Source of the DNA: Chloroflexota bacterium
GTDB lineage: Bacteria > Chloroflexota > UBA5177 > JANWHV01
Reading direction: 5' to 3'
Assembly: GCA_036559345.1 (NCBI GenBank)
Contig: DATBTL010000246.1
Location: 2,657 to 66,656, forward strand
Length of the DNA stretch: 64,000 bases
Position numbers and translations under genes: made by a program. Shown here piece after piece: positions 3,205-20,167 of the stretch. Each line of letters opens with the position of its first letter. Position 1 is the first letter of the stretch. Below the pieces are notes generated by a model that was not told the DNA's origin, made no database searches, and saw only the letters and a program-made list of their open reading frames with translations.

Positions 3205-3311
3205 GGTGTCTTGTTCCTCCGTCACGGTCATCCCGCAGGTGGTCCGGTGAATGGCGATTCGTGATTCCGCGTCACGACATGCCCCAACGGCGGGCACTTG
3301 ATGGCGAGCGA

Positions 3312-4490: not shown

Positions 4491-4525
4491 CACGCTACTC
4501 CACCGGCGCTATGCCGCTGCTTGCG

Positions 4526-4540
4526 GGAACGATTGCGAAA
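4526..4540. promoter_or_regulatory. LacI-type operator-like motif, copy 1 (GGAACGATTGCGAAA)
   Basis: The reverse complement TTTCGCAATCGTTCC matches copy 2 (TTTGCAATCGTTACC) and the copy at 9495. Lies in the divergent intergenic region between the lactonase operon and the LacI gene. Confidence 0.4.
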
Positions 4541-4652
4541 TATAGGGTTGGCGAGCGCACCCAAGACTTGCACACGCTATGAACGAGGAGTCTGACATGC
4601 GTCTCCTTGGGCCCGTCTTCTATCGTTGAGCGCGGAGCCATGGTAACATAGT

Positions 4653-4667
4653 TTTGCAATCGTTACC
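4653..4667. promoter_or_regulatory. LacI-type operator-like motif, copy 2 (TTTGCAATCGTTACC)
   Basis: Central CG with imperfect dyad. Flanked by TGGTAAC (4641-4647) and GTTACCA (4662-4668). About 75 nt upstream of the LacI ATG. Confidence 0.4.
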
Positions 4668-4742
4668 AATAGAATGGTCCGGCGGATCGCGGGCCGGCTA
4701 CCTGTCGCGACCGCCAGGCGCGCGGATGATACGGGAGGGTGC

Positions 4743-6745: not shown

Positions 6746-6756
6746 CGTCCCCCGTG

Positions 6757-7701: not shown

Positions 7702-7825
7702 GCGGTTGTCCCCCGTTCGACCAGGTATACCAGAACGAAGCAGCGTGCGCTAGCCGGTGTATGTGATCCCAGGGCAAGCGGTCGGCGCCGCGGAATGGCG
7801 GCGCCGACCGGACGAGCAGGCCGAT

Positions 7826-9088
7826 TTACTTGACCTTTACGCCTTGCAACTTCAGGTTTGAAATCACCTGGCTCTGCAACTGCTGCAAGGTCGAATGCAC
7901 GTTCGCGCCGTTGATCATCTTGCTGGTAGCGGCAGTGACCTGTAGGTCAACATACGCCTGGTTTGGACTGTAAATCCAACCCGTTCCCGTGCGTTGCGCC
8001 GAGAGCGCCAACTGCTTGGCGACTTCGGTTGGATTAGCGAAATACGGGTCGGGCTGGAAAGCGCCCGCGACATTGTACACCCCGGTAAAGGATGGTACGG
8101 TAGCCGCCTGGTGCTGGAAGGTTGGCGAGGTGCTGCAATAGACGGCAAGCTGCTGCGCCAGGGCGAGGTGCTTGCTTTGCGGCGGGACGTAGAAGGCGCC
8201 GCCGCCCCACCACCCGACCGAAGGCAGCGAGGCGGTAAACGCCCACTGACCCTTTTGCTTGGGATAGCTAGGCTTGATCACATAGGCCCCCAGCCAGTTC
8301 GGGCCGACCGCGTATGGTACCGTGCCCTGGGAGAAAGCCTTACCGGAGACGGGCTTGGTAGGATCGTCGGGAAGGACGCCGCCGCTCCGCACCGCGGTCA
8401 CGTATTGGGTCGCCAGCTTCTCGGTCAGGGGCGTGGCGATGTTGACCGTCCAGCTCCCGTCGCTGTTCAGGGCGAACCACTTGGCGTGGTTGGCCCACGC
8501 GAGCCCTTCAAGGGCCCAGTTGTCGGCGCCAAGCCAGGCGATCGCGTATTTCTTGGTCTTCGCCAGGGTCGCGGCGTCGGCATAGACCTGATCGTACGAC
8601 GTAGGGATCTTGAGGCCGGCCGCCTTGATGGTGTTGACGTTCGACCAGATGCCCCAGGCGGCCATGTCGTGCGGCACCCCGATCAACTTGCCGCCCAGGG
8701 TGAGCGGCGCCAGGGTACCGGGCGCGTACTTCGCGCGTACGGCCGCCGGCACCAGAGCGGAGAGATCGGTGGTGAGGCCGAGTTGGTAGTAGTTCGCCGC
8801 GTATTCGACGTTGTCGAACACAACATCCGGGAACCCGCTGCCGCCGCCGGCGCGCTTGAGCACGTTGAGCTTGGGAATAGGGGCGAGCTGGGTTGTATAA
8901 ACGACTTTAACCCCGGGGTGAGAGTTTTGAAAGTCCTGCGCGCAGAGGTTCCGATCCGCCCAGGCCCACATGTTGAGCGTGACCGTCCCCTGTGGGTGCG
9001 CCGCGTGCGTGGCCGCCGGAACCCCGGCGATGGTCAGAGCCAGCATCGCGCCTACGGCGGCGCCGCGCATTTTCGTGCGTTTTTCCAT
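7826..9088 (-). CDS. ABC transporter extracellular sugar-binding protein
   Basis: Signal peptide MRGAAVGAMLALTIAGVPAATHA. About 420 aa, aromatic-rich SBP family 1 composition. First gene of an SBP-permease-permease unit. Confidence 0.9.
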   Translation of the reverse strand: MEKRTKMRGAAVGAMLALTIAGVPAATHAAHPQGTVTLNMWAWADRNLCAQDFQNSHPGVKVVYTTQLAPIPKLNVLKRAGGGSGFPDVVFDNVEYAANYYQLGLTTDLSALVPAAVRAKYAPGTLAPLTLGGKLIGVPHDMAAWGIWSNVNTIKAAGLKIPTSYDQVYADAATLAKTKKYAIAWLGADNWALEGLAWANHAKWFALNSDGSWTVNIATPLTEKLATQYVTAVRSGGVLPDDPTKPVSGKAFSQGTVPYAVGPNWLGAYVIKPSYPKQKGQWAFTASLPSVGWWGGGAFYVPPQSKHLALAQQLAVYCSTSPTFQHQAATVPSFTGVYNVAGAFQPDPYFANPTEVAKQLALSAQRTGTGWIYSPNQAYVDLQVTAATSKMINGANVHSTLQQLQSQVISNLKLQGVKVK

Positions 9089-9460: not shown

Positions 9461-9489
9461 TTGACAGCGCCAGCATCACGGCCTACACT
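9461..9489 (+). promoter_or_regulatory. Sigma-70-like promoter TTGACA-N17-TACACT
   Basis: Perfect -35 and a 4/6 -10 at 17-bp spacing, 40 nt upstream of the lyase ATG (9530). Confidence 0.45.
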
Positions 9490-9494
9490 CAATC

Positions 9495-9507
9495 TGCAAA
9501 CGTTACC
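9495..9507. promoter_or_regulatory. LacI-type operator-like motif, copy 3 (TGCAAACGTTACC)
   Basis: Matches copy 2 (TGCAATCGTTACC) at 12 of 13 positions. Lies 6 nt downstream of the -10, over the predicted transcription start. Confidence 0.45.
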
Positions 9508-9529
9508 GATTGTGCCTGGATGGAATCGC

Positions 9530-10912
9530 ATGGGTGTACACCTTATTGACTCGGCCCTGTTCGGCGACCAGTTTGGCACCGAGCCAATGCGCCGGATCTT
9601 CGCGGATACCGCGGTGGTTCGCTCCTGGGTCGCCGCGGAAGCGGCTCTGGCCCGCGCGGAGGCAACAGCTGGGCTCATCCCCAGGGAAGCGGCGGCGGCG
9701 ATTAGCACGCATGGGGCCGAGTTCACCTGGGATGCCGCCGAACTGGCGACCGGCATAGCCGAAACCTTTCACCCCCTTGTTCCCGCGATCCGCCTGCTAG
9801 CCGCGCAATGCGGCGCCGCCGGGGCGTACGTCCACTGGGGCGCTACGACCCAGGACATCATGGATACGGGAATCGTGCTGCAACTTCGTGATGCTTGCGC
9901 GCTCTTGCGCGGCGACATGCTGGCGCTACGCGACGCTTGGGCCGGCCTCGCGGCCCACTACCGCGATACGCCGATGCCTGGCCGCACCCACGGCCAGCAC
10001 GCGCCCCCCGTCACCTTTGGCTATAAAGTGGCCGTGTGGGTGGCCGAGCTTGGCCGCCATCTCGACCGGCTGGATGCGTGTTTACCGCGTTTGTTGGTCG
10101 GTCAACTGGCCGGCGCATCCGGAACCCTGGCTTCCTTTGGCCCGCACGGGTTGGAGATCCAGCGGTTGATGCTGGAGGATCTCGGGCTGGGCGTGCCGCC
10201 GATTGCCTGGCACACGGCGCGGGATGGGTTCGCCGAATTCATCGGGATTCTTGGCATGGTCTGCGCGACTCTTGGCAAGGTCGCCCTGGAAGTGATTCAC
10301 TTGCAGGCCACCGAGGTGGGCGAGTTGGAGGAACCGTTCGCCATGGGGAAGGTGGGGAGTTCCACCATGCCCCATAAGCGCAACCCCATGATCTGCGAAC
10401 TGATCGTGGCGCTCGCCAAGATTGTGCGGCAGGACGCATCGCTGGCCCTGGATACGATGGTGCAGGAGCATGAGCGCGACATGGGCGCCTGGCAAGCGGA
10501 ATGGGAATTTATTCCACGCGCCTGTTTGTTCACGGCGAGCGCGCTCGCCTATTCGGTACGGGTTGCCCAGGGTCTCAAGGTCAACACCGCGAAAATGCGC
10601 GAAAATATTGACATCACCGGAGGATTGGCCCTGTCCGAGGTGATCATGCTGGAGCTGGGCCGATTCATCGGCCGCCAGGAGGCGCACGAGGTGGTGTATA
10701 CCGTGTGCATGGGAGTGGTCGAGCGCGGCGGCTCGTTCCGCGAGGCCCTGCTGGCGGAGCCGGCGGTCAGCGCGCACCTCAGCCCCGATCAGATCGACGA
10801 ACTCTTGCGCCCTGAACGCTATCTCGGGGCGGCGCCGGTTGGGGTCGACCGGGTACTGGCCGCCATCGATCGCGGCGCCGCCGTGGTTCCCGAGCCATTG
10901 GCGCGCCTATGA
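9530..10912 (+). CDS. Class I lyase family protein (3-carboxy-cis,cis-muconate cycloisomerase / adenylosuccinate lyase-like)
   Basis: ORF 9461..10912 trimmed to ATG 9530. HWGATTQDIMDT and the signature GSSTMPHKRNP. Confidence 0.85.
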   Translation: MGVHLIDSALFGDQFGTEPMRRIFADTAVVRSWVAAEAALARAEATAGLIPREAAAAISTHGAEFTWDAAELATGIAETFHPLVPAIRLLAAQCGAAGAYVHWGATTQDIMDTGIVLQLRDACALLRGDMLALRDAWAGLAAHYRDTPMPGRTHGQHAPPVTFGYKVAVWVAELGRHLDRLDACLPRLLVGQLAGASGTLASFGPHGLEIQRLMLEDLGLGVPPIAWHTARDGFAEFIGILGMVCATLGKVALEVIHLQATEVGELEEPFAMGKVGSSTMPHKRNPMICELIVALAKIVRQDASLALDTMVQEHERDMGAWQAEWEFIPRACLFTASALAYSVRVAQGLKVNTAKMRENIDITGGLALSEVIMLELGRFIGRQEAHEVVYTVCMGVVERGGSFREALLAEPAVSAHLSPDQIDELLRPERYLGAAPVGVDRVLAAIDRGAAVVPEPLARL

Positions 10913-11880
10913 GCGCGCGATGGTCAGGTGAGCGTCTCCTGGGACTCTATCGCGGGATGTATCTGATCCGGCGCTTCGAGGAGCGATGCCTGGAGCTCAG
11001 CCGGAAGGGGCTGATTCCTGGTTCGGTTCACCTCTGCGTCGGCCAGGAGGCCGTGGCCGTGGGGGCGGCGGACGCCCTGCGGCCCGACGACCTGACGGTG
11101 ACCACCTACCGCGGCCATGGCCACGAATTGGCCCGCGGCATCGATCTCAGGGCCGCGATGGCCGAATTGCTGGGCCGGCGGACGGGCCTCTGCAAGGGGA
11201 GGGGAGGCTCGATGCACCTGACCGATATCAGCCATGGCGTCCTGCCGCCCAACTCGATCGTCGGCGGCGGCTTGCCAATTGCCACCGGCGCCGCGCTGGC
11301 CCAGATGCATCAGGGCCGCGATCGCGTCGTCCTCTGTACCTTTGGCGAGGGTACGCTCAATCAGGGCGGCGCGCACGAGGCGCTCAATTTGGCCGCCATC
11401 TGGAATCTACCGGTCATCTTTCTGTGCGAGAACAACCAGTATTCGGAGATGACGCCGGCCTATCAGATGATTAAGGGCGACAGCTTTGCCCCGCGGGTCG
11501 CGGCGTACGGGATGCCTACGCACACGGTGGACGGCATGGATGCACAGGCCGTCGCGGAAGCCGTGGCCCCGGCAGTAGCGCGGGCGCGCGCGGGCGCCGG
11601 ACCGTCGTACGTGGAGGCGGACACCTACCGCTTCCTCGGTCACTATCAGGGCGATCCCGGCACGGGGTATCGTCCGGCCGAGGAAATCGCGCGCTGGCGG
11701 GAACGCGATCCGTTACCCAGGCTGGCCGAGTCGCTAGCCGCCCAGCCTGGATTCGCGCGGCGACTGGAGGCCGAGGAACAGGCGGTCGAGGAGGCGCTGG
11801 GCGCGGCGCAACAAGCGGCGCTTGAGGATCCGTGGCCATCCCGGGACGAGATCGAGGAGGGGCTGTATGCCGCCGGCTAG
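10909..11880 (+). CDS. Thiamine-diphosphate-dependent 2-oxoacid/acetoin dehydrogenase E1 alpha subunit
   Basis: YRGHGHELARG, GRGGSMHL and GGGLPIATGAAL motifs. ATGA overlap with the preceding gene. Confidence 0.9.
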   Translation: MSARWSGERLLGLYRGMYLIRRFEERCLELSRKGLIPGSVHLCVGQEAVAVGAADALRPDDLTVTTYRGHGHELARGIDLRAAMAELLGRRTGLCKGRGGSMHLTDISHGVLPPNSIVGGGLPIATGAALAQMHQGRDRVVLCTFGEGTLNQGGAHEALNLAAIWNLPVIFLCENNQYSEMTPAYQMIKGDSFAPRVAAYGMPTHTVDGMDAQAVAEAVAPAVARARAGAGPSYVEADTYRFLGHYQGDPGTGYRPAEEIARWRERDPLPRLAESLAAQPGFARRLEAEEQAVEEALGAAQQAALEDPWPSRDEIEEGLYAAG

Positions 11881-12880
11881 CGTCTCGAACCCGGTTGATG
11901 CCGCGACCCGTGTGCTAACCTATGCCCAGGCGCTCAATCTGGCGCTGGCGGAGGAATTGGAGCGTGACCCGTCGGTCATCCTGCTGGGCGAGGATATTGG
12001 CGCCTACGGGGGAGTGTTCGGGGTGACGCGCGACCTACAATCGCGTTTCGGCGCCGGACGGGTGCGGGATACGCCAATCTCGGAGACCGGCTTTCTCGGA
12101 TGCGCGGTGGGCGCCGCGATATGCGGACTCCGGCCGGTCGCGGAAATCATGTTCGTCGATTTTACCCTGGTCGCCCTGGATCAAATCGTCAACCAGGCGG
12201 CGAAATTGCCGTTCCTCACCGGAGGGCAAGTGCAAATGCCGCTGGTGTTCCGCACCCAACAGGGCGCGCGCCCCGGCACCGCCGCGCAGCACTCACAGTG
12301 CCTGGAGGCGATATTCGCCCATGTGCCGGGTCTGAGGGTGGTGGCGCCGGCCACGCCGGCGGACGCGCGCGGATTGTTAAAGTCAGCCATTCGCTCCGAT
12401 GATCCGGTCCTCTTTTTGGAGCACAAGGGCCTCTATGCCACCAGTGGTCCGATCCCGATCGAGGAGCAGCTCGTACCGCTTGGCAAGGCTAACGTCGTCC
12501 GCGCGGGCAGCCAGGTCACCGCCCTGACCTATTCCGCGATGCTGCCGGTCGTGCTGGCCGCCGCCGACGCCCTGGCGGCGGAGGGAGTCTCGGTGGAGGT
12601 GATCGACCTGCGAACCCTGGCGCCCCTGGACCAGGAGACCATCGTGGCCTCGGTCAAACAGACCAATCGGGTCGTGGTGATCCACGAGGGTTGGCGGCGC
12701 GGTGGGTATGGGGCCGAGGTCGCCGGCACGATTCAGGATCTTGCCTTCGACTGGCTCGACGCACCCATAGGGCGAGTCGGGGCGCGTGATATTCCCAAAC
12801 CGTTCTCGGCGGCCTTTGATTCGACCTATCTCCCTACGGCGGAAACGGTCGCCGCCGCCTTGCGCGCCACCCTCGACTGA
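11867..12880 (+). CDS. 2-oxoacid/acetoin dehydrogenase E1 beta subunit
   Basis: ORF trimmed to ATG 11867, overlapping the alpha stop. LGEDIGAYGGVFGVT..RVRDTPISE and a transketolase-like C-terminus. Confidence 0.9.
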   Translation: MPPASVSNPVDAATRVLTYAQALNLALAEELERDPSVILLGEDIGAYGGVFGVTRDLQSRFGAGRVRDTPISETGFLGCAVGAAICGLRPVAEIMFVDFTLVALDQIVNQAAKLPFLTGGQVQMPLVFRTQQGARPGTAAQHSQCLEAIFAHVPGLRVVAPATPADARGLLKSAIRSDDPVLFLEHKGLYATSGPIPIEEQLVPLGKANVVRAGSQVTALTYSAMLPVVLAAADALAAEGVSVEVIDLRTLAPLDQETIVASVKQTNRVVVIHEGWRRGGYGAEVAGTIQDLAFDWLDAPIGRVGARDIPKPFSAAFDSTYLPTAETVAAALRATLD

Positions 12881-12893
12881 AAGGCGAGAACAG

Positions 12894-13997
12894 ATGATCG
12901 AAGAGTGGCGGCTGGACGTAACCTTGCCGATGCCCGAACGCCGGGATTATCCGATCGCGATCGTTGGGGCCGGTGGCATCGTCCAGGACGCGCATCTGCC
13001 GGCCTACCGGAATGCCGGTTTCACGGTCGTGGGGATCTACGATATTGACCAGGAGCGGGCCGCGCGCGTGGCGGCACGATTCGACATTCCCACGGTGTAC
13101 GAGTCACTTGACGCCGTACTCGATGGCCCAGCCGCGATCATCGACGTGGCGGTTCCCGCGCGCGAGAATCCGGCCATTGCCGCCCGTGTGGCGCGGGCCG
13201 GGAAAGCGCTGCTCTTGCAGAAGCCGATAGCCGAGGATCTGGCGGCGGCCGAGGAAATCGTGAGGGTGACCGAACAGGCCGGGATTATCGCCGCCGTGAA
13301 CCAACAAGCGCGGTGGATGCCGGCGGCGCTGGCGATGCGCGATCTGATCGGCCGGGGCCTCCTTGGCGAGATCTACCAGGTTTCTTTCTTGATCAACGTG
13401 GAGACGCCGTGGAGCCTCTGGCCGTGGATCATCGCGGGCGAGCGAGTCGAGGTTCTCTACCATTCCATCCACTACCTTGATACGATCCGGGCTCTCCTTG
13501 GCCGCGAGCCCCGGCTGGTATTCGCCGATGGCACGACAATACCCGGCTACCCGACCAGGGCGGAAACGCGCACCAACATCCAGCTCATCTTCGAGGGAAC
13601 CACTCGCGCCACCGTCCTCGACACCCATCATAACTCCGGTGGCCTTGATGACCAGTTCGCGCTGCTCCGGGTGGAAGGCACGGAGGGCGCGGCGGTGGCC
13701 GAGCTTGGCCTGCTCAAGAATTATCCTACCGGGGTGCCCGATTCGTTCCGGTACCATAGCCGGAAGCTCCAGCCAGGCACCTGGATCGCGCCAAAGCTGA
13801 CCGGCACCTGGTTCCCGGATGCCTTCATCGGGACGATGGCCAGCGTGATGCGTGGACTGGAGGGAGCGCCGGGCGCCCCCGAGACCTCCGTGCGCGACAA
13901 CCTTGGCACCCTGCGGGTGGTGCTGGCCGCCTATCAGTCGATGGCGACCGCGCGGGCGGTCGATCCCGCCGCGTTGGCGCGGGAAACATTCTCATGA
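12894..13997 (+). CDS. Gfo/Idh/MocA family oxidoreductase
   Basis: Trimmed to ATG 12894. Rossmann start IAIVGAGGIVQDAHLPAY. Confidence 0.85.
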   Translation: MIEEWRLDVTLPMPERRDYPIAIVGAGGIVQDAHLPAYRNAGFTVVGIYDIDQERAARVAARFDIPTVYESLDAVLDGPAAIIDVAVPARENPAIAARVARAGKALLLQKPIAEDLAAAEEIVRVTEQAGIIAAVNQQARWMPAALAMRDLIGRGLLGEIYQVSFLINVETPWSLWPWIIAGERVEVLYHSIHYLDTIRALLGREPRLVFADGTTIPGYPTRAETRTNIQLIFEGTTRATVLDTHHNSGGLDDQFALLRVEGTEGAAVAELGLLKNYPTGVPDSFRYHSRKLQPGTWIAPKLTGTWFPDAFIGTMASVMRGLEGAPGAPETSVRDNLGTLRVVLAAYQSMATARAVDPAALARETFS

Positions 13998-14050
13998 TCC
14001 GGCACGATCAACGACGGGCCGGGGGAGCGCACGGACACGGGAGATCCTAG

Positions 14051-14791
14051 ATGCCGGAACAAGGCGTGGTTCTCGTGACGGGGGCGGCCCAGGGGATGGG
14101 CCTAGCCATCGCCCGTGGATTGGCGGCGGCCGGCTATCGCGTAGCCATGGTCGATCGACAAGAGACAATCCTGCGGGAAGCAGCGGCGGGGCTGGACCGC
14201 GCCGTGCCGTTCGTCCTTGATCTGCGGGATGCCGCCGCGCTGGCCCCGCTGGTCGAGCGCGTGGAGCAGGAATGCGGGCCGCTGGTCGGTCTGGTCAACA
14301 ACGCGGGCATCGTCAAGACGCAACTCCTGGAGGAAGTGACGCTGGAAGATTGGGAGACTATGTTTGCCGTCGATGCTCGCGCACCCTTCTTCTTGATGCA
14401 GGCGGCGGGGGCGCGGATGGCCGGGCGCGGGGCGGGCGCGATGGTCAATATCGCCAGCGTGGCGGGACGTTCGGCCCGACCGCGGCAAACCATGTATGGG
14501 GCCGGCAAGGCTGCCCTCCTGCATCTGACCAAATCCGCCGCGGCATATTTTGGGCCGCGCGGGGTGCGCGTCAACGCGGTGTGCCCGGGAGTGATCCGCA
14601 CCGAGATGACCGAGCAAGTCTGGCGGGATCGCGCACCGGAGGAGGTCGAACACATTTTGCGGAGTATTCCTTTGCAGCGGGTTGGCGAACCCGACGAGGT
14701 GGCCGCCGCGGTTATCTGGCTGTTGGGGCCGGGTGCGAGCTATGTGAATGGGCAGGCGATCAACGTCTGCGGCGGACTGGAAATGGATTAG
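14051..14791 (+). CDS. SDR family oxidoreductase
   Basis: VLVTGAAQGMG, NNAG and YGAGKAA (YxxxK) motifs. Confidence 0.9.
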   Translation: MPEQGVVLVTGAAQGMGLAIARGLAAAGYRVAMVDRQETILREAAAGLDRAVPFVLDLRDAAALAPLVERVEQECGPLVGLVNNAGIVKTQLLEEVTLEDWETMFAVDARAPFFLMQAAGARMAGRGAGAMVNIASVAGRSARPRQTMYGAGKAALLHLTKSAAAYFGPRGVRVNAVCPGVIRTEMTEQVWRDRAPEEVEHILRSIPLQRVGEPDEVAAAVIWLLGPGASYVNGQAINVCGGLEMD

Positions 14792-14839
14792 CCCTATTCA
14801 GCATCCAAGCGGGATCGGATCCGGAAAGGGGAGGCTGGG

Positions 14840-15316
14840 ATGCTGCATGGCATCTGGCACTTTAGCTTCACTGTCGCGAACATCGAGCGCTCGATCGTTT
14901 TTTATCGGGATCTCCTGGGCCTAACTCTCGTGCATACCCAGGAGCAACGGAATGCTTACACCAGCAGGCTCGTCGGTTATCCCGATGCGCACCTCAAGGT
15001 GGCGCAATTCGCGGTCCCCGGTCAGTCGCGGGCGCTCTCAACCCACGACCTTGAACTGGTGGAGTACGTTAACCCCCGCGGAGCGCGGGGGGACAGCAAC
15101 ATCTGCAATCCGGGCGCGGCGCATCTGGCGCTGTGCGTTGATGATATTCAGGCCCGGTACGAACGGCTGAGCGCCGCCGGGGTCGGCTTCCATTCATCGC
15201 CCAATGCCATTACCTCGGGGGTCAATGCCGGCGGCTTCACCTGCTACTTCCGCGATCCGGACCAAATTGTGCTGGAACTGGTCCAACCACCAAGAGGCCG
15301 GCCAGCACCCGGCTAG
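14840..15316 (+). CDS. VOC (glyoxalase/bleomycin-resistance/dioxygenase) family protein
   Basis: HFSFTVANIERSIVFYRDLLGL start and about 158 aa with two beta-alpha-beta-beta-beta modules. Confidence 0.85.
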   Translation: MLHGIWHFSFTVANIERSIVFYRDLLGLTLVHTQEQRNAYTSRLVGYPDAHLKVAQFAVPGQSRALSTHDLELVEYVNPRGARGDSNICNPGAAHLALCVDDIQARYERLSAAGVGFHSSPNAITSGVNAGGFTCYFRDPDQIVLELVQPPRGRPAPG

Positions 15317-15377
15317 CCGGTGGAGTACGCCCGGAACAAAAGTGAACGAGTGCGGGAAACGAAAAGGGGATCGATCC

Positions 15378-16346
15378 ATGCAGGCTCTGAGCGCGGCGCA
15401 ACTGGAACAATTCACGGAGGATGGCTATCTGGTGGTCAGCGATGTCCTTGATCCGATCGCGGATTTGGGGCCGCTTCAGGACGAATACGCGCGTGTGCTC
15501 GACTCAATCGCCCGGTTATTCGTCGAGCAAGGTGCGTTGACCGCCTTGTACGATGACCTTCCCTTCCGGGAACGCCTGATTCGGGTGTGCCGGGAAAGTG
15601 GGAAGAGCGTCTCGCAATTCTTCGACTTTAGCCTGCCCCAGACAGGGGTACGCGCCGACACCCCCATGCATGTTGGCCCCGCCGTGTTCGGCTTGCTGAC
15701 CAACCCGAAGCTGCTCGATGTCGTGGCCTCCGTGATCGGCCCGGAGATTTACTCGAACCCGGTGCAGCACGTCCGCATGAAACTGCCTCCCGGCGTCCTG
15801 CCGGCCGCCGGCGCGGATGGCCTGAACGCGACCATTCCCTGGCATCAGGATAACGGCGTGGTCTTGCCCGAGGCCGACGAGGCGACCATCCTCACGGTCT
15901 GGTTGCCCTTAAACGAGGCGACGATCGCGAACGGCTGCTTACAGGTGATTCCCCGCAGCCATCGGGGCGAACTGGAGCCGCACTGCCCTACCGCCAAGGG
16001 CGCGGCCATTCCCGATGTCGTGGTGGCGGACCGGCGGGCGATTCCGGTCCCCATGCGGCCGGGGAGCGTCCTGCTTATGCATCAACGCACCATTCACAGC
16101 TCCCTGGATAATACGACGCCGGATCAGGTGCGGATCAGTCTGGATCTCCGCTATCAGCCGATTGGCCAACCTACAGGGCGGCCAGCGTTTCCCGGCTTTG
16201 TCGCGCGGAGCGCCGCGGGACCGGAGACCGTGCTGCGCGATCCCGAGGGGTGGGCGAATCTCTGGCGGGAGGCGCGGGCCCATCTGGCCGCCGAGGCCAA
16301 CCCCGCCTTCAACCGCTGGAAAGCGGGAGTCGGGGTGTGCGCCTGA
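15378..16346 (+). CDS. Phytanoyl-CoA dioxygenase (PhyH) family Fe(II)/2-oxoglutarate oxygenase
   Basis: Trimmed to ATG 15378 (GAAAAGGGGA RBS). FTEDGYLVV start, WHQD (HxD) and distal HQRTIHSS. Confidence 0.85.
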   Translation: MQALSAAQLEQFTEDGYLVVSDVLDPIADLGPLQDEYARVLDSIARLFVEQGALTALYDDLPFRERLIRVCRESGKSVSQFFDFSLPQTGVRADTPMHVGPAVFGLLTNPKLLDVVASVIGPEIYSNPVQHVRMKLPPGVLPAAGADGLNATIPWHQDNGVVLPEADEATILTVWLPLNEATIANGCLQVIPRSHRGELEPHCPTAKGAAIPDVVVADRRAIPVPMRPGSVLLMHQRTIHSSLDNTTPDQVRISLDLRYQPIGQPTGRPAFPGFVARSAAGPETVLRDPEGWANLWREARAHLAAEANPAFNRWKAGVGVCA

Positions 16347-16430
16347 GCGCCGCTTCCCAAGCGAATCTTGTCCTGGGTTCGCCCGCGCGGCAAGCCGCGA
16401 GATAGATCAGTGCTTTGGTAAGGGGAAATC

Positions 16431-17513
16431 ATGCGAATTGTCGATGTGCAAGTCAACCTCTTCGAGATCCCGGCCGGTCCATCGTTCCGCTGGCGGGACG
16501 GTTTACCCGGCGCGGAGCCAGATGTTACCGGCGCGGTATTGCGCGTGATCACCGACGACGGCCGGGAGGGCCTGGCCTTCACTAACCGTGGGATCATCCT
16601 GCGGGACCTGGTGGCGCGGCGCTTGCGCGCCGAGCTAATCGGGCAGGATCCGCTCCAGAAGGAGTGGCTCTGGCATCGGGTGTGGGAGCTTGACCGGATT
16701 GAAGAGTTCCCGCTCTACGTACTCGGCCTGGTGGATGTGGCGCTCTGGGATCTGACCGGCAAGGTCGCCGGCTTGCCGGTCTATCAGCTTTTAGGCGGAT
16801 TTCGCGCCAGTATTCCGGCCTATGCCAGCACGGTGACCTTCGCCACGACCGAGGAATTTCTCGACGTGGCGGACCAATGCCTGGCCCTGGGCTATCCCGC
16901 GATCAAGTTGCATGCCTGGGGGGACGCGCGGCGTGATGCCAAGCTGTGCCTGGCGCTCCGCGAACATGTGGGCGACGAAGTGCCGCTCATGTACGATGGC
17001 TCGGCGGGCTTCGATCTGCCCGACTCCATCTACCTGGGCCATGCGCTGTCCGACGCCGGGTACCTGTGGTACGAGGAACCGATGCGCGAGTTTAGCATCA
17101 CCGCCTACAAGTGGCTGGCCGCCGCCGTGCGCGTGCCGCTCCTGGTGGCGGAGACCTCGGACGGGGCGCACATGAATACGGCGGACTTCATCGCCTCCGG
17201 ATGCGCCGCGTTCGTGCGAACCAGCAGCGGGCTCAAGGGCGGTCTTACCGGCGCCATGCGGATCGCCCATCTGGCGGACTCCTTCAGGCTGCGCGCCGAG
17301 GTACATGGCGACGGCCTGGTCAATCGCCATCTCTGCATGGCCATCTCCAACACGACCTATTACGAGTCGCTGGTCCGCACGAACCCAGTGGCGCGCGCGC
17401 CCGAAATAGACGCCCAGGGCTTGGTCCACGCCCCCACGGCGCCCGGGATCGGCTGGGAAGCGACCTGGGATCGCCCGCCCTGGGAAGTCGGCGGAGCGCG
17501 GGGCCTGGAATGA
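16431..17513 (+). CDS. Enolase-superfamily (MR/MLE) enzyme
   Basis: VDVALWDLTGK, YDGSAG, WYEEP and VAETS metal-ligand pattern. Confidence 0.85.
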   Translation: MRIVDVQVNLFEIPAGPSFRWRDGLPGAEPDVTGAVLRVITDDGREGLAFTNRGIILRDLVARRLRAELIGQDPLQKEWLWHRVWELDRIEEFPLYVLGLVDVALWDLTGKVAGLPVYQLLGGFRASIPAYASTVTFATTEEFLDVADQCLALGYPAIKLHAWGDARRDAKLCLALREHVGDEVPLMYDGSAGFDLPDSIYLGHALSDAGYLWYEEPMREFSITAYKWLAAAVRVPLLVAETSDGAHMNTADFIASGCAAFVRTSSGLKGGLTGAMRIAHLADSFRLRAEVHGDGLVNRHLCMAISNTTYYESLVRTNPVARAPEIDAQGLVHAPTAPGIGWEATWDRPPWEVGGARGLE

Positions 17514-18292
17514 GCGTACCCGCGCCCATTACCCCCGATAACATCGCGGCTGACCCGCTGGTGGCCATGGTCACCGGGGCGGCGCGCGGCATGGGCGCGG
17601 CCATCGCCCGCCGGCTGGCGGCGGACGGTCTGGCAGTCGTTCTTGCCGATCGCCGCCGCGAGGCCATCGACGCGCTGGCCGTCGATATCGCGCGGGCAGG
17701 TGGCCGCGCCGCCGCGCTTGAGGTCGATCTGGCCGATGCCGGCCAGATTGAACGGCTCGAAGCCGCGGCGCGCGCCACGTTCGGGCGATTGGATGTGCTG
17801 GTGAACAATGCCGGGGTGATCCTGCCAAAGGGCTTCATGGAGGCATCGGTTGAGGAATGGGATCGCATGATGGCGGTCAATCTTCGGGCCGTGTACCTGC
17901 TCTGCCGGGCCGCGTTACCGGAGCTACGACGGCGGCGGGGCACGATCGTCAACATAGCCTCCACGGCGGGCCTACGCGCGCAGATGGAAAACGGACCCTA
18001 CTGCGTCGCCAAAAGCGGGGTGATTATGTTGACCCAGGCCCTGGCCCAGGAGGTGCGCGCCGCTGGGGTGCGGGTCAATTGTGTATGTCCGGGCGCCGTG
18101 GACACGCCGCTGCTAACGGAGTACGCGCGGGCGCGCGGCACACCGGAGAGCATTGACGCGCTGGCGGCCTCCGGAATGCTGGTCCCGCCCGAGGATGCCG
18201 CGGCGACGGTGTCGTTCCTGGTCAGCCAAGGGGCACGATCGATAACCGGGCAGGTACTGGTCGTGGACCGAGGTGGGTTGGTCGCGGGATAG
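17510..18292 (+). CDS. SDR family oxidoreductase
   Basis: ORF 17111..18292 trimmed to ATG 17510 (ATGA overlap). VTGAARGMG, NNAG, YCVAKSG. Confidence 0.9.
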   Translation: MSVPAPITPDNIAADPLVAMVTGAARGMGAAIARRLAADGLAVVLADRRREAIDALAVDIARAGGRAAALEVDLADAGQIERLEAAARATFGRLDVLVNNAGVILPKGFMEASVEEWDRMMAVNLRAVYLLCRAALPELRRRRGTIVNIASTAGLRAQMENGPYCVAKSGVIMLTQALAQEVRAAGVRVNCVCPGAVDTPLLTEYARARGTPESIDALAASGMLVPPEDAAATVSFLVSQGARSITGQVLVVDRGGLVAG

Positions 18293-18428
18293 CTCGGCGT
18301 ACTCGGCGGGACTCATGCGCGGGCGTCCCCGCTCGGCTAGCCGTACCGCCGCGCTACGGGTTCGACACGATCATGTACGTGGCAGCAGAGAATGTTGAAA
18401 AACCGAGCGGATATCTGGATGAGCCGCA

Positions 18429-19262
18429 ATGTCGAGGGAGTCATTGGTGAAAACAGAGTCAACGAAACGGCTGGACGGTCAGGTCGCGGTGATCACCGGC
18501 GGGGGTCAGGGTATTGGGCGAGCGATGGCGCACGCCTTTGCCGAGTCAGGCGCCATCGTCGCCATCGCCGATGTGCAAGCCGAGTATGCCTCCGCCGCGG
18601 CGGAGGAAATCCGAACCGAGGGAGGTCAGGCGCTGGCCTTCCCCACCGACGTGACCTCACCCGAGAGTGTGAGCGACCTATTCGCCGCGCTACGGCAACA
18701 ATTCGCGCGGCTCGATATCCTGGTGAACAACGCCGGGATTTGTCCAGTGACCCCCTTCCCAAATTTCGCGCTTACTTCATGGCGCCAGGTCTTCGCCGTG
18801 AATGTGGAAGGGCCGGTTCTCACCATCCAGGCGGCGGCGGCGCTGATGCCGGCGCAGGCGGTGCATCCCGTGTCGGGGCGACGGGGCACGATCATCAACG
18901 TCAGTTCACCGGCGGCCGAGATTGGCCGGCCAATGTTTGCCGCGTACGGAGCGAGCAAGGCGGCCCTGAACAGCCTTTCCCGCACCAGCGCGGACGTGTT
19001 GGGCCCACGCGGCATCGCCACCACCGTCCTCTACCCCGGCAGCGTCCTCGGGCCGCTGTGGGACGACCTGTTGCCGGACCTGAGCGCGGCCGAGGGGCGC
19101 GACGCGGAGGAGATCCTTGCCGAGCGTGCCGCCGGCATGCCGAACGGTCGATTCCAGATGCCGGAGGAGACCGCTCGGATGGCGCTCTATATCGCAACCG
19201 CCTCCGGCATGGGCCTCAATGGGCGCTTGCTCTGGTCGGAAGCGCATGTGACCTCGCTATGA
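18429..19262 (+). CDS. SDR family oxidoreductase
   Basis: VITGGGQGIG, NNAG, YGASKAA. GTG 18447 is an alternative start with a GAGGGAG RBS. Confidence 0.9.
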   Translation: MSRESLVKTESTKRLDGQVAVITGGGQGIGRAMAHAFAESGAIVAIADVQAEYASAAAEEIRTEGGQALAFPTDVTSPESVSDLFAALRQQFARLDILVNNAGICPVTPFPNFALTSWRQVFAVNVEGPVLTIQAAAALMPAQAVHPVSGRRGTIINVSSPAAEIGRPMFAAYGASKAALNSLSRTSADVLGPRGIATTVLYPGSVLGPLWDDLLPDLSAAEGRDAEEILAERAAGMPNGRFQMPEETARMALYIATASGMGLNGRLLWSEAHVTSL

Positions 19263-20125
19263 ACATGCGGTTAGGGTTAGCCGGGGCGCTGATCCCGCGC
19301 GACGATGCCGCGATCACCCCCGCCCTGGCCCTCCAGTGCGCGTCACTGGGACTCCGGGGACTGGTGACCCATTTCACGACCCCTCCAGAGGTGCTGGCGG
19401 GCCACCGGGGTGAACGCGTTCGTGCCGTACTGGAGGACGCCGGACTACGCATCGTTCAGGCCACGGGCTACAATCCCCTCCTGATCCATCCGGACGACGC
19501 CGTACGAGACGTGGAACTGGCGCGCCTGCGATCCGCCTTCGCCGCGGCCCAGTCGCTTGGGGCCGAAATGATCATCACCGGCTGCGGATCCCATCATCCC
19601 AGCTTCTTTTACGGACCGGCGGCGGCAAATCACACCGAACGGGCGCGCGCTCGGCTCGTGCAGAGCTTACGGCTGGCGGCGCCCTGGGCCGAGGCGTCGG
19701 GCATCCTCCTCGCGCTGGAGTGCCATGTCCTCACGACCCTCGACTCGCCCGCGCATATCCGCGCCATACTTGAGGCGGTCGGCTCGCCGTGGGTGCGGGC
19801 CAACTTCGATCCGGTCAACCTGATCGGCGATCTGCCGACACTCTACGGCAACGCCGCCGCGATGCTGAACATGCGGGAGGAACTGGGCCCATACTACGCG
19901 CCGAGCGCGCACATCAAGGACATAGCAGCGCTGCCCGAACTTGTCCTCCATCTGGCCGAGGCGCCGCCTGGCGAAGGTCTCCTTGATTACGCCGCGTTCT
20001 TTGAGGTCTGTCGCGTACTGGGCAATGGCGCCGCGCTCATCGTGGAGCATCTGAACATCGAACAGTTGGATCCCGCGCTGGCGTTCGTGAAAGCCGCCGC
20101 ACGGCGTCATGGCATAGTACTTTAA
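19259..20125 (+). CDS. Sugar phosphate isomerase/epimerase (xylose-isomerase-like TIM barrel)
   Basis: ORF 18392..20125 trimmed to ATG 19259 (ATGA overlap). LALECH and ANFDPVN motifs. Confidence 0.85.
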   Translation: MNMRLGLAGALIPRDDAAITPALALQCASLGLRGLVTHFTTPPEVLAGHRGERVRAVLEDAGLRIVQATGYNPLLIHPDDAVRDVELARLRSAFAAAQSLGAEMIITGCGSHHPSFFYGPAAANHTERARARLVQSLRLAAPWAEASGILLALECHVLTTLDSPAHIRAILEAVGSPWVRANFDPVNLIGDLPTLYGNAAAMLNMREELGPYYAPSAHIKDIAALPELVLHLAEAPPGEGLLDYAAFFEVCRVLGNGAALIVEHLNIEQLDPALAFVKAAARRHGIVL

Positions 20126-20167
20126 CGGCATGAAGTCTCACGACACCTGCGGAAATCGCCGCCATCT

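What the first reader, a model, noticed from the sequence alone, without database searches (positions are those of the whole stretch)
9530..20125. Ten-gene translationally coupled operon with an unusual enzyme mix (class I lyase, orphan E1 alpha/beta, PhyH oxygenase, VOC, enolase, three SDRs)
Seen: the genes are co-directional with four ATGA or overlapping junctions. A TPP-dependent E1 alpha/beta pair has no E2 or E3. A PcaB/adenylosuccinate-lyase-like enzyme, an Fe/2OG PhyH oxygenase and a VOC protein sit among sugar-type dehydrogenases and a TIM-barrel isomerase. A sugar ABC importer lies next door.

Established: each family is common, but I know of no characterised sugar pathway that uses this combination.

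Inference: a catabolic route for a modified sugar, sugar acid or cyclitol, involving C-C cleavage (E1) and oxygenation. No specific substrate can be named from sequence alone.
Basis: inference. Interest (0 to 1): 0.6.

Follow-up and report, generated by a model that had tools for sequence, protein, structure and literature searches.

The report
Deoxy-sugar catabolic island, uncharacterised lower module
This is a regulated sugar-breakdown gene island whose core, an ASL-type lyase, a thiamine-dependent E1 pair, a small metalloenzyme and sugar dehydrogenases, recurs across several bacterial phyla and matched no fucose or sugar-acid route found in a limited literature search, so it probably encodes an undescribed way to degrade fucose-like sugars.

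Summary
There are three ATGA overlaps and one 14-nt overlap. One sigma-70-like promoter plus a LacI-type operator lies upstream, and no internal terminator was found.

The eleven genes are not one evolutionary unit. Lyase, E1 alpha, E1 beta, Gfo/Idh/MocA dehydrogenase, SDR1 and VOC, together with the Amidohydro_2 lactonase and rhaM mutarotase of the divergent left arm, form a module. It recurs in Chloroflexota and many Actinomycetota, usually as SDR-lyase-E1a-E1b-VOC-lactonase-Gfo-LacI. The full set was found in 33 of 66 full-flank loci. PhyH, the Gci-like enolase, SDR2, SDR3 and the TIM barrel are an add-on seen only in close relatives.

Alpha-L-fucosidase-family genes (GH29, GH95) sit in or beside the module in nine loci from several lineages. 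The lactonase's only solved relative is L-fucono-1,5-lactonase.

The best reading is oxidative catabolism of an L-fucose-type deoxy sugar with a new lower pathway replacing the known aldolase or FAH hydrolase. The chemistry of that lower part (lyase, E1, VOC) is inferred, not shown.

E2 genes are absent from the contig but five exist elsewhere in the genome, and some related loci carry E2 or E3. I found no published description. Interest is moderate to good.

The parts
2116..3231 (-). Enolase-superfamily acid-sugar dehydratase (Enol1). The start is probably 3204 or 3231. Last gene of the left arm.
   Evidence: Pfam MR_MLE_N and MR_MLE_C. Best NCBIfam hit is L-talarate/galactarate dehydratase, 310 bits against a cut-off of 500. 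Best PDB hits are 2og9 and 2pp0, E 1e-70.
3312..3635 (-). rhaM-family sugar mutarotase
   Evidence: Pfam PF05336, E 2.8e-34. Orthologues of 43-70% identity lie in related loci.
3648..4493 (-). Amidohydro_2 sugar lactonase, L-fucono-1,5-lactonase-like
   Evidence: Pfam PF04909. The only NCBIfam hit is L-fucono-1,5-lactonase, 220 bits, below the cut-off of 400. The only PDB relative is 4dlf/4do7, E 3.8e-43. It is 58-67% identical in Thermogemmatispora and Actinomycetota modules.
4525..4667 (.). Two exact copies of the LacI-type operator GCAAWCGTTMCC (4525-4536 on the - strand, 4656-4667 on the + strand), between the left arm and the regulator gene
   Evidence: The motif is also found beside the LacI genes of the related loci L015, L016, L096 and L100.
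4674..5786 (+). LacI-family regulator
   Evidence: Pfam LacI and Peripla_BP_1/3. It is 71% identical in the same-genus genome and 61% in Thermogemmatispora.
5819..6700 (-). ABC permease 2 (CUT1 type). The start is approximate.
   Evidence: Pfam BPD_transp_1. It is 87% identical to the orthologue in L015.
6757..7701 (-). ABC permease 1
   Evidence: Pfam BPD_transp_1. 80% identity in L015.
7826..9088 (-). Solute-binding protein, SBP_bac_1. The ligand is unknown.
   Evidence: Pfam. No informative solved relative.
9461..9507 (+). Promoter-like TTGACA-17-TACACT (9461-9489), followed by the third exact operator copy (9496-9507), 23 nt before the lyase start
9530..10912 (+). Fumarase/ASL-superfamily lyase with the ASL-type catalytic His and Ser loop. 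Core module.
   Evidence: Pfam Lyase_1 and ADSL_C. PDB 3c8t, E 8e-116. The motif is RTHGQ, against RTWLQ in CMLE and RSNLK in Tad1. Orthologues appear.
10909..11880 (+). TPP-dependent E1 alpha, translationally coupled to the lyase. Core module.
   Evidence: Pfam E1_dh. The G(D/E)G-X26-NN motif is intact. Lyase-E1a-E1b order is conserved.
11867..12880 (+). E1 beta. Core module.
   Evidence: Pfam Transket_pyr and Transketolase_C. NCBIfam E1 beta subfamily, 400 bits against a cut-off of 321.
12894..13997 (+). Gfo/Idh/MocA oxidoreductase, a candidate aldose 1-dehydrogenase. Core module.
   Evidence: Pfam. Only weak solved relatives. 43-69% identical orthologues lie next to the lactonase in other modules.
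14051..14791 (+). SDR1, the partner of the VOC protein. Core module.
   Evidence: Pfam adh_short. SDR-VOC adjacency is seen in Chloroflexota, Actinomycetota, Gaiellaceae and Binatia.
14840..15316 (+). Small VOC (glyoxalase-fold) metalloenzyme. It is the most conserved protein of the module.
   Evidence: Pfam Glyoxalase. 64-81% identity across phyla. H7, E72, H95 and E146 are invariant. The model has pLDDT 92 and is most similar to the uncharacterised 1ss4 and GloA.
15378..16346 (+). PhyH-family Fe(II)/2-oxoglutarate oxygenase. Accessory block.
   Evidence: Pfam PhyH. Present only in close relatives L098 and L112, and in L046.
16431..17513 (+). Enolase-superfamily enzyme (Enol2). Its closest solved relative is Agrobacterium 1rvk/4hcd, which I recall to be galactarolactone cycloisomerase (Gci); the search output names it only 'isomerase/lactonizing enzyme'. 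Accessory block.
   Evidence: Pfam MR_MLE. PDB 1rvk/4hcd, E 1e-55. 86% identity in L112.
17510..18292 (+). SDR2, ATGA-coupled to Enol2. Accessory block.
18429..19262 (+). SDR3. Accessory block.
19259..20125 (+). Xylose-isomerase-like TIM barrel (AP_endonuc_2), ATGA-coupled to SDR3. Accessory block.
   Evidence: Pfam. The SDR-SDR-TIM order is also seen in L098, L100 and L112.

Best explanation
The finding is the long arm of a LacI-controlled sugar-catabolic island (about 2116-20125) on a plasmid-like replicon of a Chloroflexota genome.

Shown:
- There are eleven tightly packed genes behind one promoter-like site and an operator.
- A divergent importer and a divergent lactonase/mutarotase/dehydratase arm carry the same operator.
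- A conserved module recurs in several phyla: Gfo dehydrogenase, Amidohydro_2 lactonase, SDR, VOC, ASL-type lyase and E1 alpha/beta, with LacI and often rhaM.

Inferred substrate: an L-fucose-type 6-deoxy (L-galacto-configured) sugar, taken up as a free sugar.

Inferred upper pathway: mutarotase, then aldose 1-dehydrogenase (Gfo, or an SDR), then lactonase, giving the sugar acid.

Inferred lower pathway (speculative):
1. SDR1 and the VOC metalloenzyme oxidise and isomerise or dehydrate the methyl end of the sugar acid to an acyloin or alpha-diketone.
2. The E1 pair, acting like acetoin-dehydrogenase E1, cleaves it with TPP into a C2 unit and a C4 dicarboxylic acid (malate or tartrate type).
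3. The C2 unit is released as acetaldehyde, or passed to an E2 where one is available.
4. The ASL-type lyase then eliminates from that 1,4-diacid, giving fumarate or oxaloacetate.

PhyH, the enolase that resembles Gci, SDR2, SDR3 and the TIM barrel are a lineage-specific extension. They probably open the module to modified (for example O-methylated) sugars, or provide a parallel dehydratase/dehydrogenase/isomerase branch.
For: - Gene anatomy and coupling.
- Promoter and operator: three exact GCAAWCGTTMCC sites lie only in the three intergenic control regions. The motif is conserved beside LacI genes of related loci.
- Synteny in the same genus (G003): lactonase-mutarotase / LacI / permeases-SBP / lyase-E1a-E1b-Gfo, at 70-87% identity.
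- Thermogemmatispora: rhaM, lactonase, Gfo and LacI, then a CUT2 monosaccharide ABC system, then lyase-E1a-E1b-SDR-VOC.
- Actinomycetota: SDR-lyase-E1a-E1b-VOC-lactonase-Gfo-LacI. The full set is present in 33 of 66 VOC-anchored loci with full flanks.
- Fucosidase families: GH29 lies inside the operon of L099. GHL6/GH29 genes abut the lyase in L024 and L038. GH95 lies beside the module in L195 and four Actinomadura loci.
- The lactonase's only solved relative, and only NCBIfam hit, is L-fucono-1,5-lactonase. The mutarotase is rhaM family.
- The lyase keeps the ASL-type His and Ser-Ser loop. These are conserved in the module lyases examined: His in 117 of 130 by a strict motif pattern, and in the aligned Actinomycetota representatives that missed the pattern. 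It lacks the Trp of CMLE and the Asn of Tad1.
- Homologues of the lyase in non-sugar contexts sit beside citrate (CitMHS) and TRAP carboxylate transporters. This fits a di-acid substrate.
- The E1 TPP motif is intact. E2 accompanies the E1 in ten related loci. Brevibacillus has lyase-E1a-E1b-VOC-E3-E2-SDR-TRAP.
- In a Binatia locus that lacks E1, another TPP enzyme lies near SDR-VOC.
- No aldolase or FAH hydrolase lies in or beside the module.
- A 2026 review lists only the phosphorylative route and the oxidative route, whose hydrolase is FAH-family (PMC13406643). The aldolase variant of the oxidative route is described in PMC11199699.
Against: - No expression or biochemical data exist.
- Fucosidase-family genes accompany only nine of about 165 related loci.
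- The window's own genome (90% complete) shows no GH29 and only marginal GH95 matches.
- Both enolase-superfamily proteins of the island are closest to enzymes that act on, or (1rvk/4hcd, by my recollection) are assigned to, aldaric acids and their lactones. They are not closest to L-fuconate dehydratase.
- None of the three SDRs has the Arg-x-x-Tyr pattern of type-1 L-KDF 4-dehydrogenase (my reading against PMC11199699).
- The lyase and the E1 are each missing from some loci: 10 loci have E1+SDR+VOC without lyase, and L098 and L100 have the lyase without E1. A strict E1-to-lyase substrate hand-off is therefore not required everywhere.
- If C2 of L-fuconate is kept, the predicted diacid is ordinary L-malate, which would not need a dedicated lyase.
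- The lyase tree is poorly resolved. The Actinomycetota module lyases are only 37-39% identical to the window's.
Confidence: 0.5

Rival explanations
1. The island runs the known oxidative L-fucose route 3, with non-homologous replacements. Enol1 or Enol2 dehydrate L-fuconate. An SDR oxidises 2-keto-3-deoxy-L-fuconate. The VOC metalloenzyme replaces the FAH-family diketo-acid hydrolase, giving pyruvate and L-lactate. The E1 pair is simply a pathway-linked pyruvate dehydrogenase E1 that docks on one of the genome's five E2 cores. The lyase has a side role.
For: - The SDR-VOC pair is the constant unit. In Binatia it occurs with lactonase and Gfo alone.
- E1 beta passes NCBIfam's PDH E1-beta subfamily cut-off.
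- Five E2 genes exist in the genome, and E2/E3 lie beside the E1 in some loci.
- VOC folds can activate water. FosX is an example (my own knowledge; FosX is among the fold matches).
Against: - Most module loci (Thermogemmatispora, Actinomycetota) have no enolase or other known sugar-acid dehydratase.
- The SDRs lack the type-1 KDF-dehydrogenase arginine pattern.
- No VOC C-C hydrolase is known to me.
- This reading leaves the lyase unexplained, although it is conserved and translationally coupled to the E1.
- E1 alpha scores below the PDH equivalog cut-off, 324 against 394.
Confidence: 0.2
2. The substrate is not a neutral deoxy sugar but an acidic or branched sugar, such as a uronic acid, an aldaric acid or a carboxy-branched deoxy sugar of plant pectin. 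Oxidation and lactone opening yield a dicarboxylic sugar acid. The ASL-type lyase acts on it directly to make a 2-oxo acid, which the E1 pair then decarboxylates.
For: - Members of the fumarase/ASL superfamily known to me act on 1,4-diacid skeletons (established knowledge).
- Enol1 is closest to L-talarate/galactarate dehydratase. Enol2 is closest to the Agrobacterium enzyme 1rvk/4hcd, which I recall to be galactarolactone cycloisomerase.
- Lyase homologues lie next to citrate and TRAP transporters, and the Brevibacillus module has a TRAP system.
- The lyase directly precedes, and is coupled to, the E1.
Against: - The importers of the sugar-context modules are CUT1 and CUT2 sugar ABC systems.
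- The mutarotase is rhaM type, and the lactonase is closest to L-fucono-1,5-lactonase.
- The glycosidases found nearby are fucosidase families, not pectin or uronate enzymes.
- The two enolases are absent from most module loci.
Confidence: 0.17
3. The eleven genes are a mosaic of two or more unrelated pathways that merely share a strand and a regulator on a mobile replicon. No single route uses them all.
For: - The core and the accessory block have different phyletic spread.
- The island lies between a tyrosine recombinase gene and decayed genes on a plasmid-like replicon.
- Intergenic gaps of 84 and 136 nt occur inside the accessory half.
Against: - The same eleven-gene order, or the nine-gene order without E1, is kept at 69-86% identity in other metagenome contigs (L098, L112).
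- ATGA coupling links genes inside both halves.
- No internal promoter or terminator was detected.
- PhyH is inserted between the lyase and E1a in L046.
Confidence: 0.1
4. The cluster makes a small molecule (for example a modified sugar or cyclitol natural product) rather than degrading one.
For: Stand-alone E1-like pairs, Fe/2OG oxygenases and ASL-type lyases do occur in biosynthetic clusters (my own knowledge).
Against: - The island has a LacI repressor, uptake ABC systems, a mutarotase and a lactonase.
- Glycoside hydrolases lie nearby in related loci.
- No glycosyltransferase, NDP-sugar enzyme, ligase or exporter was seen.
Confidence: 0.03

Closest known systems
Non-phosphorylative (oxidative) L-fucose / L-rhamnose pathways. 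These comprise mutarotase, 1-dehydrogenase, Amidohydro_2 lactonase, dehydratase, then either an aldolase or an SDR 4-dehydrogenase plus an FAH-family hydrolase. Sources: Xanthomonas, Burkholderia, Herbaspirillum; PMC11199699, PMC13406643.
   Same: A sugar importer, a mutarotase, an Amidohydro_2 lactonase related to L-fucono-1,5-lactonase, NAD-type dehydrogenases and an enolase-superfamily dehydratase are present. The glycosidases in related loci are fucosidase families.
   Different: There is no aldolase and no FAH hydrolase. The conserved partners are instead an ASL-type lyase, a TPP-dependent E1 pair and a small VOC protein. The 1-dehydrogenase candidate is Gfo/Idh/MocA rather than SDR or AKR. 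Most module loci lack any known sugar-acid dehydratase.
Acetoin dehydrogenase (AcoABCL) and pyruvate dehydrogenase E1 alpha/beta heterotetramers
   Same: The domain architecture is the same, the TPP motif is intact, and E1 beta passes the PDH-type subfamily model. E2 and E3 lie adjacent in some related loci.
   Different: There is no E2 or E3 in this operon or on this contig. The pair is always linked to a lyase, an SDR and a VOC protein inside sugar clusters. E1 alpha scores below the PDH equivalog cut-off. The substrate is unknown.
Adenylosuccinate lyase, 3-carboxy-cis,cis-muconate cycloisomerase (PcaB) and trans-aconitate decarboxylase Tad1, within the fumarase/aspartase superfamily. The structural-genomics protein 3c8t is the nearest solved relative.
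   Same: The fold and the GSSxMPxKxNP loop are shared. The catalytic His of the RTHxQ motif is shared with ASL and with 3c8t.
   Different: It is not in a purine context. A second purB-like gene exists in the genome, and other models outscore purB. It lacks the Trp of PcaB and the Asn of Tad1. It sits in a sugar operon, translationally coupled to an E1.
Glyoxalase I and other small VOC metalloenzymes (GloA, FosX/FosA; the uncharacterised B. cereus protein 1ss4)
   Same: It has the paired beta-alpha-beta-beta-beta fold, with the His/Glu/His/Glu metal ligands invariant.
   Different: It scores 41 bits against a cut-off of 120 for the glyoxalase I model. It forms its own family, 64-81% identical across phyla, and is almost always next to an SDR in sugar clusters.
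Oxidative uronate pathway of Agrobacterium (Udh, galactaro-lactone isomerase, Gci cycloisomerase). The pathway details and the identity of 1rvk/4hcd as Gci are my own recollection.
   Same: Enol2's best solved relative is 1rvk/4hcd (E 1e-55). An Amidohydro_2 protein is present.
   Different: KdgD and the alpha-ketoglutarate semialdehyde dehydrogenase are absent. Enol2 belongs to the accessory block only. The Amidohydro_2 protein matches the fuconolactonase, not the lactone isomerase, among solved structures.

Membership tests
Oxidative non-phosphorylative L-fucose pathway (route 1 or route 3) | Sugar mutarotase | tested here: met
   The protein at 3312-3635 matches Pfam rhaM, E 2.8e-34. It falls below the NCBIfam L-rhamnose mutarotase cut-off, 37.5 against 99.6, so its specificity is open.
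Oxidative non-phosphorylative L-fucose pathway (route 1 or route 3) | L-fucono-1,5-lactonase of the Amidohydro_2 family | tested here: inconclusive
   The family is met. The only NCBIfam and PDB relative is L-fucono-1,5-lactonase, but the score is 220 bits against an equivalog cut-off of 400.
Oxidative non-phosphorylative L-fucose pathway (route 1 or route 3) | L-fuconate dehydratase (FucD-type enolase or UxaA-type) | tested here: inconclusive
   Two enolase-superfamily proteins are present, but their closest relatives are TalrD/GalrD and 1rvk/4hcd. No FucD structure appears among the hits at the thresholds used. Most related modules lack such a gene.
Oxidative non-phosphorylative L-fucose pathway (route 1 or route 3) | L-KDF 4-dehydrogenase with the Arg148/Arg192/Arg214 carboxylate clamp (type 1: Arg three residues before the catalytic Tyr) | tested here: not met
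   By inspection of the translations, the residue at Tyr-3 is Gln in SDR1, Asn in SDR2 and Phe in SDR3. The pattern is taken from PMC11199699. That paper's other Arg patterns (types 2-4) were not tested.
Oxidative non-phosphorylative L-fucose pathway (route 1 or route 3) | [quoted passage not shown] | tested here: not met
   No DHDPS/HpcH-type aldolase or FAH domain occurs in any gene from 2116 to 20125. FAH genes exist in the genome, but on other contigs and never beside the module in the three other genomes checked.
2-oxoacid / acetoin dehydrogenase complex | E1 alpha with a TPP-binding motif, and E1 beta with the pyrimidine-binding and C-terminal domains | tested here: met
   Pfam E1_dh, Transket_pyr and Transketolase_C. 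The GEG-X26-NN motif is present.
2-oxoacid / acetoin dehydrogenase complex | Cognate lipoyl-bearing E2 (and E3) encoded alongside | tested here: not met
   There is none in the operon, and no E2 on contig C246. Five E2 genes lie elsewhere, at least four beside an E1 of their own. E2 is present in ten related loci and E3 in two.
Adenylosuccinate lyase (PurB) | Equivalog-level score and a purine-pathway role | tested here: inconclusive
   The TIGR00928 score of 329 barely exceeds the cut-off of 326. Three other models score 442-474, all below their own cut-offs. A second purB-like gene, 39% identical, lies on another contig. The context here is a sugar operon.
3-carboxy-cis,cis-muconate cycloisomerase (PcaB) | Trp in place of the catalytic His (RTWLQ), and an aromatic beta-ketoadipate context | tested here: not met
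   The window has RTHGQ. The alignments to 1re5 and 1q5n show Trp there. No pca genes are nearby.
Trans-aconitate decarboxylase (Tad1) | Asn at the same position (RSNLK) | tested here: not met
   Alignment to 9h3i.
Glyoxalase I | Equivalog score and thiol-hemithioacetal chemistry | tested here: not met
   41 bits against a cut-off of 120. The fold and the metal ligands are shared. The chemistry cannot be tested here.
PhyH-type Fe(II)/2-oxoglutarate oxygenase | HxD...H facial triad | tested here: met
   Pfam PhyH, E 2.7e-27. WHQD and a distal TIHSS His are visible in the translation (by inspection).
myo-Inositol-type cyclitol catabolism (IolG, IolE, IolD, IolB, IolC, IolJ) | IolD-type TPP hydrolase, IolC kinase and IolJ aldolase alongside IolG and IolE | tested here: not met
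   Only a Gfo/Idh/MocA protein is present (TIGR04380 at 57 bits against a cut-off of 355), together with a generic AP_endonuc_2 barrel. No kinase, aldolase or ALS-type TPP enzyme is present.

The most novel reading that the evidence does not exclude
A third, TPP-dependent route of 6-deoxyhexose (L-fucose-type) catabolism. The sugar acid is oxidised and rearranged by a dedicated SDR-VOC pair. An acetoin-dehydrogenase-like E1 heterotetramer, working without its own E2, then splits it into a C2 unit and a C4 dicarboxylate. An ASL-type lyase newly recruited to sugar metabolism finishes the C4 product. This would give new functions to three enzyme families (VOC, E1ab, ASL-like lyase) at once. It would also explain a seven-gene module present in Chloroflexota, many Actinomycetota and other soil phyla.
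Probability: 0.2. Interest if true: 0.75.

Novelty: new variant of a known kind. Interest (0 to 1): 0.55.

Why it matters
L-fucose and related deoxy sugars are abundant in plant, algal and microbial glycans. A 2026 review (PMC13406643) describes only two bacterial L-fucose routes.

This module is conserved across at least three phyla. It occurs in cultured, tractable actinomycetes (Nonomuraea, Streptosporangium, Microbispora, Actinomadura) and in Thermogemmatispora. It contains none of the known terminal enzymes.

Working it out would probably assign first functions to three things:
- a highly conserved VOC family;
- a clade of ASL-like lyases, whose structural-genomics representative 3c8t carries only a generic name in the PDB entry;
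- a class of E2-less E1 pairs.

It would also improve carbon-cycle annotation of soil Chloroflexota and Actinomycetota.

Tried and rejected
- **Aromatic (PcaB) reading of the lyase.** Rejected: it has His rather than Trp in the C2 motif, and there are no pca genes.
- **Sulfosugar lead.** This came from the top NCBIfam hit, XcbD, and from sulfoquinovose papers. Dropped: the three best lyase models score alike and all fall below their cut-offs, and no sulfoquinovosidase or sulfite exporter was seen.
- **D-apionate oxidoisomerase lead for the Gfo protein.** This rested on my memory of PDB 5uhw. I could not verify it. The ApnO paper compares ApnO with ketol-acid reductoisomerase and never mentions Gfo.
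- **Cyclitol reading.** No IolD, IolC or IolJ equivalents are present.
- **Lyase as a monocarboxylic sugar-acid dehydratase.** Considered, because many modules lack any dehydratase. I judged it unlikely, because members of the superfamily known to me use 1,4-diacid skeletons.
- **Lyase phylogeny.** The deep nodes are unresolved and the context labels are scattered, so no clean 'sugar clade' can be claimed.
- **Solved-structure searches for the SBP and the VOC protein, and the VOC fold search.** These gave only generic relatives.
- **Naive ORF calling.** It failed on the very GC-rich actinomycete loci. I replaced it with called genes from the look-up of encoding contigs.
- **The look-up of sequencing runs.** No expression or environmental data were obtained.
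- **Literature searches for the gene combination.** They found nothing relevant.

Full report
**Observation**

The + strand from 9530 to 20125 holds eleven genes, not ten.
- a Lyase_1/ADSL_C lyase;
- E1 alpha (E1_dh) and E1 beta (Transket_pyr, Transketolase_C);
- a Gfo/Idh/MocA oxidoreductase;
- three SDRs;
- a small VOC protein;
- a PhyH oxygenase;
- an enolase-superfamily protein;
- an AP_endonuc_2 TIM barrel.

Three junctions are ATGA overlaps and one is a 14-nt overlap. The remaining gaps are 13-136 nt. The only + strand sigma-70-like promoter match in 9000-20600 is TTGACA-17-TACACT at 9461-9489. No terminator-like site lies inside the operon.

**The surroundings belong to the same unit**

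Divergently transcribed are a CUT1 solute-binding protein and two permeases, with no ATPase gene. Beyond them lie a LacI-family regulator and a second divergent arm. That arm encodes:
- an Amidohydro_2 lactonase, whose only NCBIfam and PDB relative is L-fucono-1,5-lactonase;
- a rhaM-family mutarotase;
- an enolase-superfamily dehydratase closest to L-talarate/galactarate dehydratase.

There are three exact copies of GCAAWCGTTMCC in 64 kb. All three lie in the control regions, and one sits 23 nt before the lyase start, just after the promoter-like site. The motif recurs beside the LacI genes of the same-genus genome, of Thermogemmatispora and of L100.

The genome is a 90%-complete Chloroflexota MAG. 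Its nearest cultured relative for these genes is Thermogemmatispora.

**Core and accessory genes**

I anchored one set of searches on the lyase (85 loci) and another on the VOC protein (80 loci). They show that the eleven genes are not one evolutionary unit.

The recurrent set is SDR, lyase, E1 alpha, E1 beta, VOC, Amidohydro_2 lactonase and Gfo, with a LacI or GntR regulator and often rhaM.
- In Thermogemmatispora it is arranged around a CUT2 monosaccharide ABC system.
- In Nonomuraea, Streptosporangium, Microbispora, Actinomadura and relatives it forms one compact operon: SDR-lyase-E1a-E1b-VOC-lactonase-Gfo-LacI.
- Of 66 VOC-anchored loci with full flanks, 33 carry the whole set. Ten have E1+SDR+VOC without the lyase. 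Thirteen (Binatia) have only SDR-VOC.

Three adjacencies recur: SDR-VOC, lyase-E1a-E1b and Gfo-lactonase.

The VOC protein is the most conserved member, at 64-81% identity across phyla, with invariant His7, Glu72, His95 and Glu146.

PhyH, the second enolase, SDR2, SDR3 and the TIM barrel occur as a block only in close relatives (L098, L112). SDR-SDR-TIM occurs in L100, and PhyH sits between the lyase and E1a in L046.

**Substrate class**

Alpha-L-fucosidase-family genes accompany the module in nine loci from several lineages:
- GH29 inside the operon, and two more at its edges, in L099 (lyase 75% identical);
- GHL6/GH29 genes abutting the lyase in an Armatimonadota MAG and one other MAG;
- GH95 in a Binatia-like contig and in four Actinomadura species.

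Taken with the fuconolactonase-like lactonase, the rhaM mutarotase and the monosaccharide-type importers, this points to an L-fucose-type (L-galacto-configured, 6-deoxy) sugar.

The inference is moderate, not strong, for three reasons. Only nine of about 165 loci show the link. The window's own genome shows no GH29 and only marginal GH95 matches. The island's two enolases resemble enzymes of aldaric acids and their lactones rather than FucD.

**The unusual enzymes**

*The lyase.* It is nearest to the structural-genomics protein 3c8t (E 8e-116), then to PcaB and Tad1. At the diagnostic position it has the His of adenylosuccinate lyase (RTHGQ), not the Trp of PcaB or the Asn of Tad1. It keeps the Ser-Ser loop.

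A strict motif pattern found the His in 117 of 130 module lyases. Aligned Actinomycetota representatives, including one that missed the pattern, also keep the His and the Ser-Ser loop. It therefore looks like an active beta-elimination enzyme with an acid-requiring leaving group.

Its homologues outside sugar clusters sit beside citrate (CitMHS) and TRAP transporters. This fits the 1,4-diacid substrates of the superfamily as I know it.

*The E1 pair.* It has an intact TPP motif, in the GEG variant. E1 beta passes a PDH-type subfamily model, while E1 alpha falls short of the equivalog cut-off. No E2 is on the contig, although five exist elsewhere in the genome, at least four beside an E1 of their own.

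Ten related loci carry an E2 next to the E1. Brevibacillus has lyase-E1a-E1b-VOC-E3-E2-SDR with a TRAP system. The E1 can therefore feed a lipoyl E2 in some lineages, and 'orphan' is a local description.

*The VOC protein.* The model is confident (pLDDT 92) but resembles only generic small glyoxalase-fold proteins.

**Mechanism**

The upper pathway (mutarotase, aldose 1-dehydrogenase, lactonase) follows from family membership and is ordinary. The lower pathway is not. No aldolase or FAH hydrolase lies in or near the module, and most module loci have no known sugar-acid dehydratase.

I searched for a scheme that gives every conserved protein a job and respects the lyase superfamily's need for a 1,4-diacid. 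The best one I found is this:
1. SDR and VOC turn the methyl end of the 6-deoxy sugar acid into an acyloin or alpha-diketone.
2. The E1 pair, acting like acetoin-dehydrogenase E1, cleaves the C4-C5 bond. This gives a C2 unit and a C4 dicarboxylate (malate or tartrate type).
3. The C2 unit leaves as acetaldehyde, or as acetyl on an E2 where one is present.
4. The lyase converts the C4 diacid to fumarate or oxaloacetate.

The scheme is atom-balanced, by my own arithmetic. It explains why a deoxy sugar would recruit an acetoin-type E1. It is consistent with a different TPP enzyme lying near SDR-VOC in a Binatia locus that lacks E1.

It is inference throughout, and it has weaknesses. The lyase and the E1 each occur without the other in some loci. 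With L-fuconate, the predicted diacid is ordinary L-malate.

The main rival keeps the known route 3 and makes the VOC protein a replacement for the FAH hydrolase and the E1 a pathway-linked pyruvate dehydrogenase E1. A second rival makes the substrate an acidic or branched sugar.

**Comparison with known systems, and novelty**

A July 2026 review describes only the phosphorylative and the oxidative L-fucose routes, with an FAH-family hydrolase at the end of the oxidative one (PMC13406643). The aldolase variant and the L-KDF dehydrogenase work come from PMC11199699. None of these sources mentions these families. Four full-text searches for the gene combination found nothing.

I file the island as a new variant of the oxidative deoxy-sugar pathways. 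It is not a member of the described routes, because the defining terminal enzymes were looked for and not found.

Noticed in passing
Related loci L018, L044, L045, L048, L053, L058, L066, L068, L070, L080, L081 and L196: In Anaerolineae, Caldilineae and Thermoflexales, lyase orthologues are repeatedly joined to four further genes. These are a MetE-like (Meth_synt_2) protein, a weakly MtaA/CmuA-like 365-aa protein, an unannotated 325-aa protein and a class-III aminotransferase. Together they may form a methyl-transfer or demethylation and amination add-on to the same sugar module.
   Followed up: partly
Related loci L042, L082, L093 (CitMHS) and L097, L057 (TRAP): Lyase homologues of 47-54% identity in Bacillota and Proteobacteria lie next to citrate-type or TRAP carboxylate transporters. 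In Calderihabitans the neighbours also include succinate dehydrogenase, class I fumarase and PrpD genes. This suggests that the wider lyase family acts on di- or tricarboxylates.
   Followed up: partly
G000 contig C205, about 1444-3043 (outside the window): An FAH-family hydrolase gene lies directly beside another E1 alpha gene of the same genome. This is a second unusual E1 neighbourhood.
   Followed up: no
window 10909-11880 (E1 alpha): The Mg/TPP motif reads GEG-X26-NN instead of the usual GDG. Thermogemmatispora and a few Anaerolineae orthologues share this. Seventy of 76 orthologues, and the genome's other E1 alphas, have GDG.
   Followed up: partly
window 988-2001 and 20130-22160: The island is bracketed by a tyrosine recombinase gene on the left. 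On the right is a HAMP+HisKA-only kinase fragment followed by a ParB_N fragment. This fits a cargo island on the plasmid-like replicon noted by earlier agents.
   Followed up: partly
window 5819-9088: The CUT1 importer has a binding protein and two permeases but no ATPase gene. It presumably borrows a shared MsiK-type ATPase encoded elsewhere.
   Followed up: no
Locus L195 (Binatia-like long contig): Genes around SDR-VOC (Gfo, FGGY kinase, SBP, permeases) are called as many short fragments. This looks like frameshift errors of a long-read assembly rather than decay.
   Followed up: no
Loci L116, L171, L174, L179, L181, L183, L184, L186 and L196: In Actinoplanes-type modules, and in L116 and L196, a roughly 96-aa protein related to the MIase-family (PF02426) protein of L196 is present and no rhaM orthologue was detected. 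It is possibly an alternative mutarotase of the same dimeric alpha+beta barrel kind.
   Followed up: no
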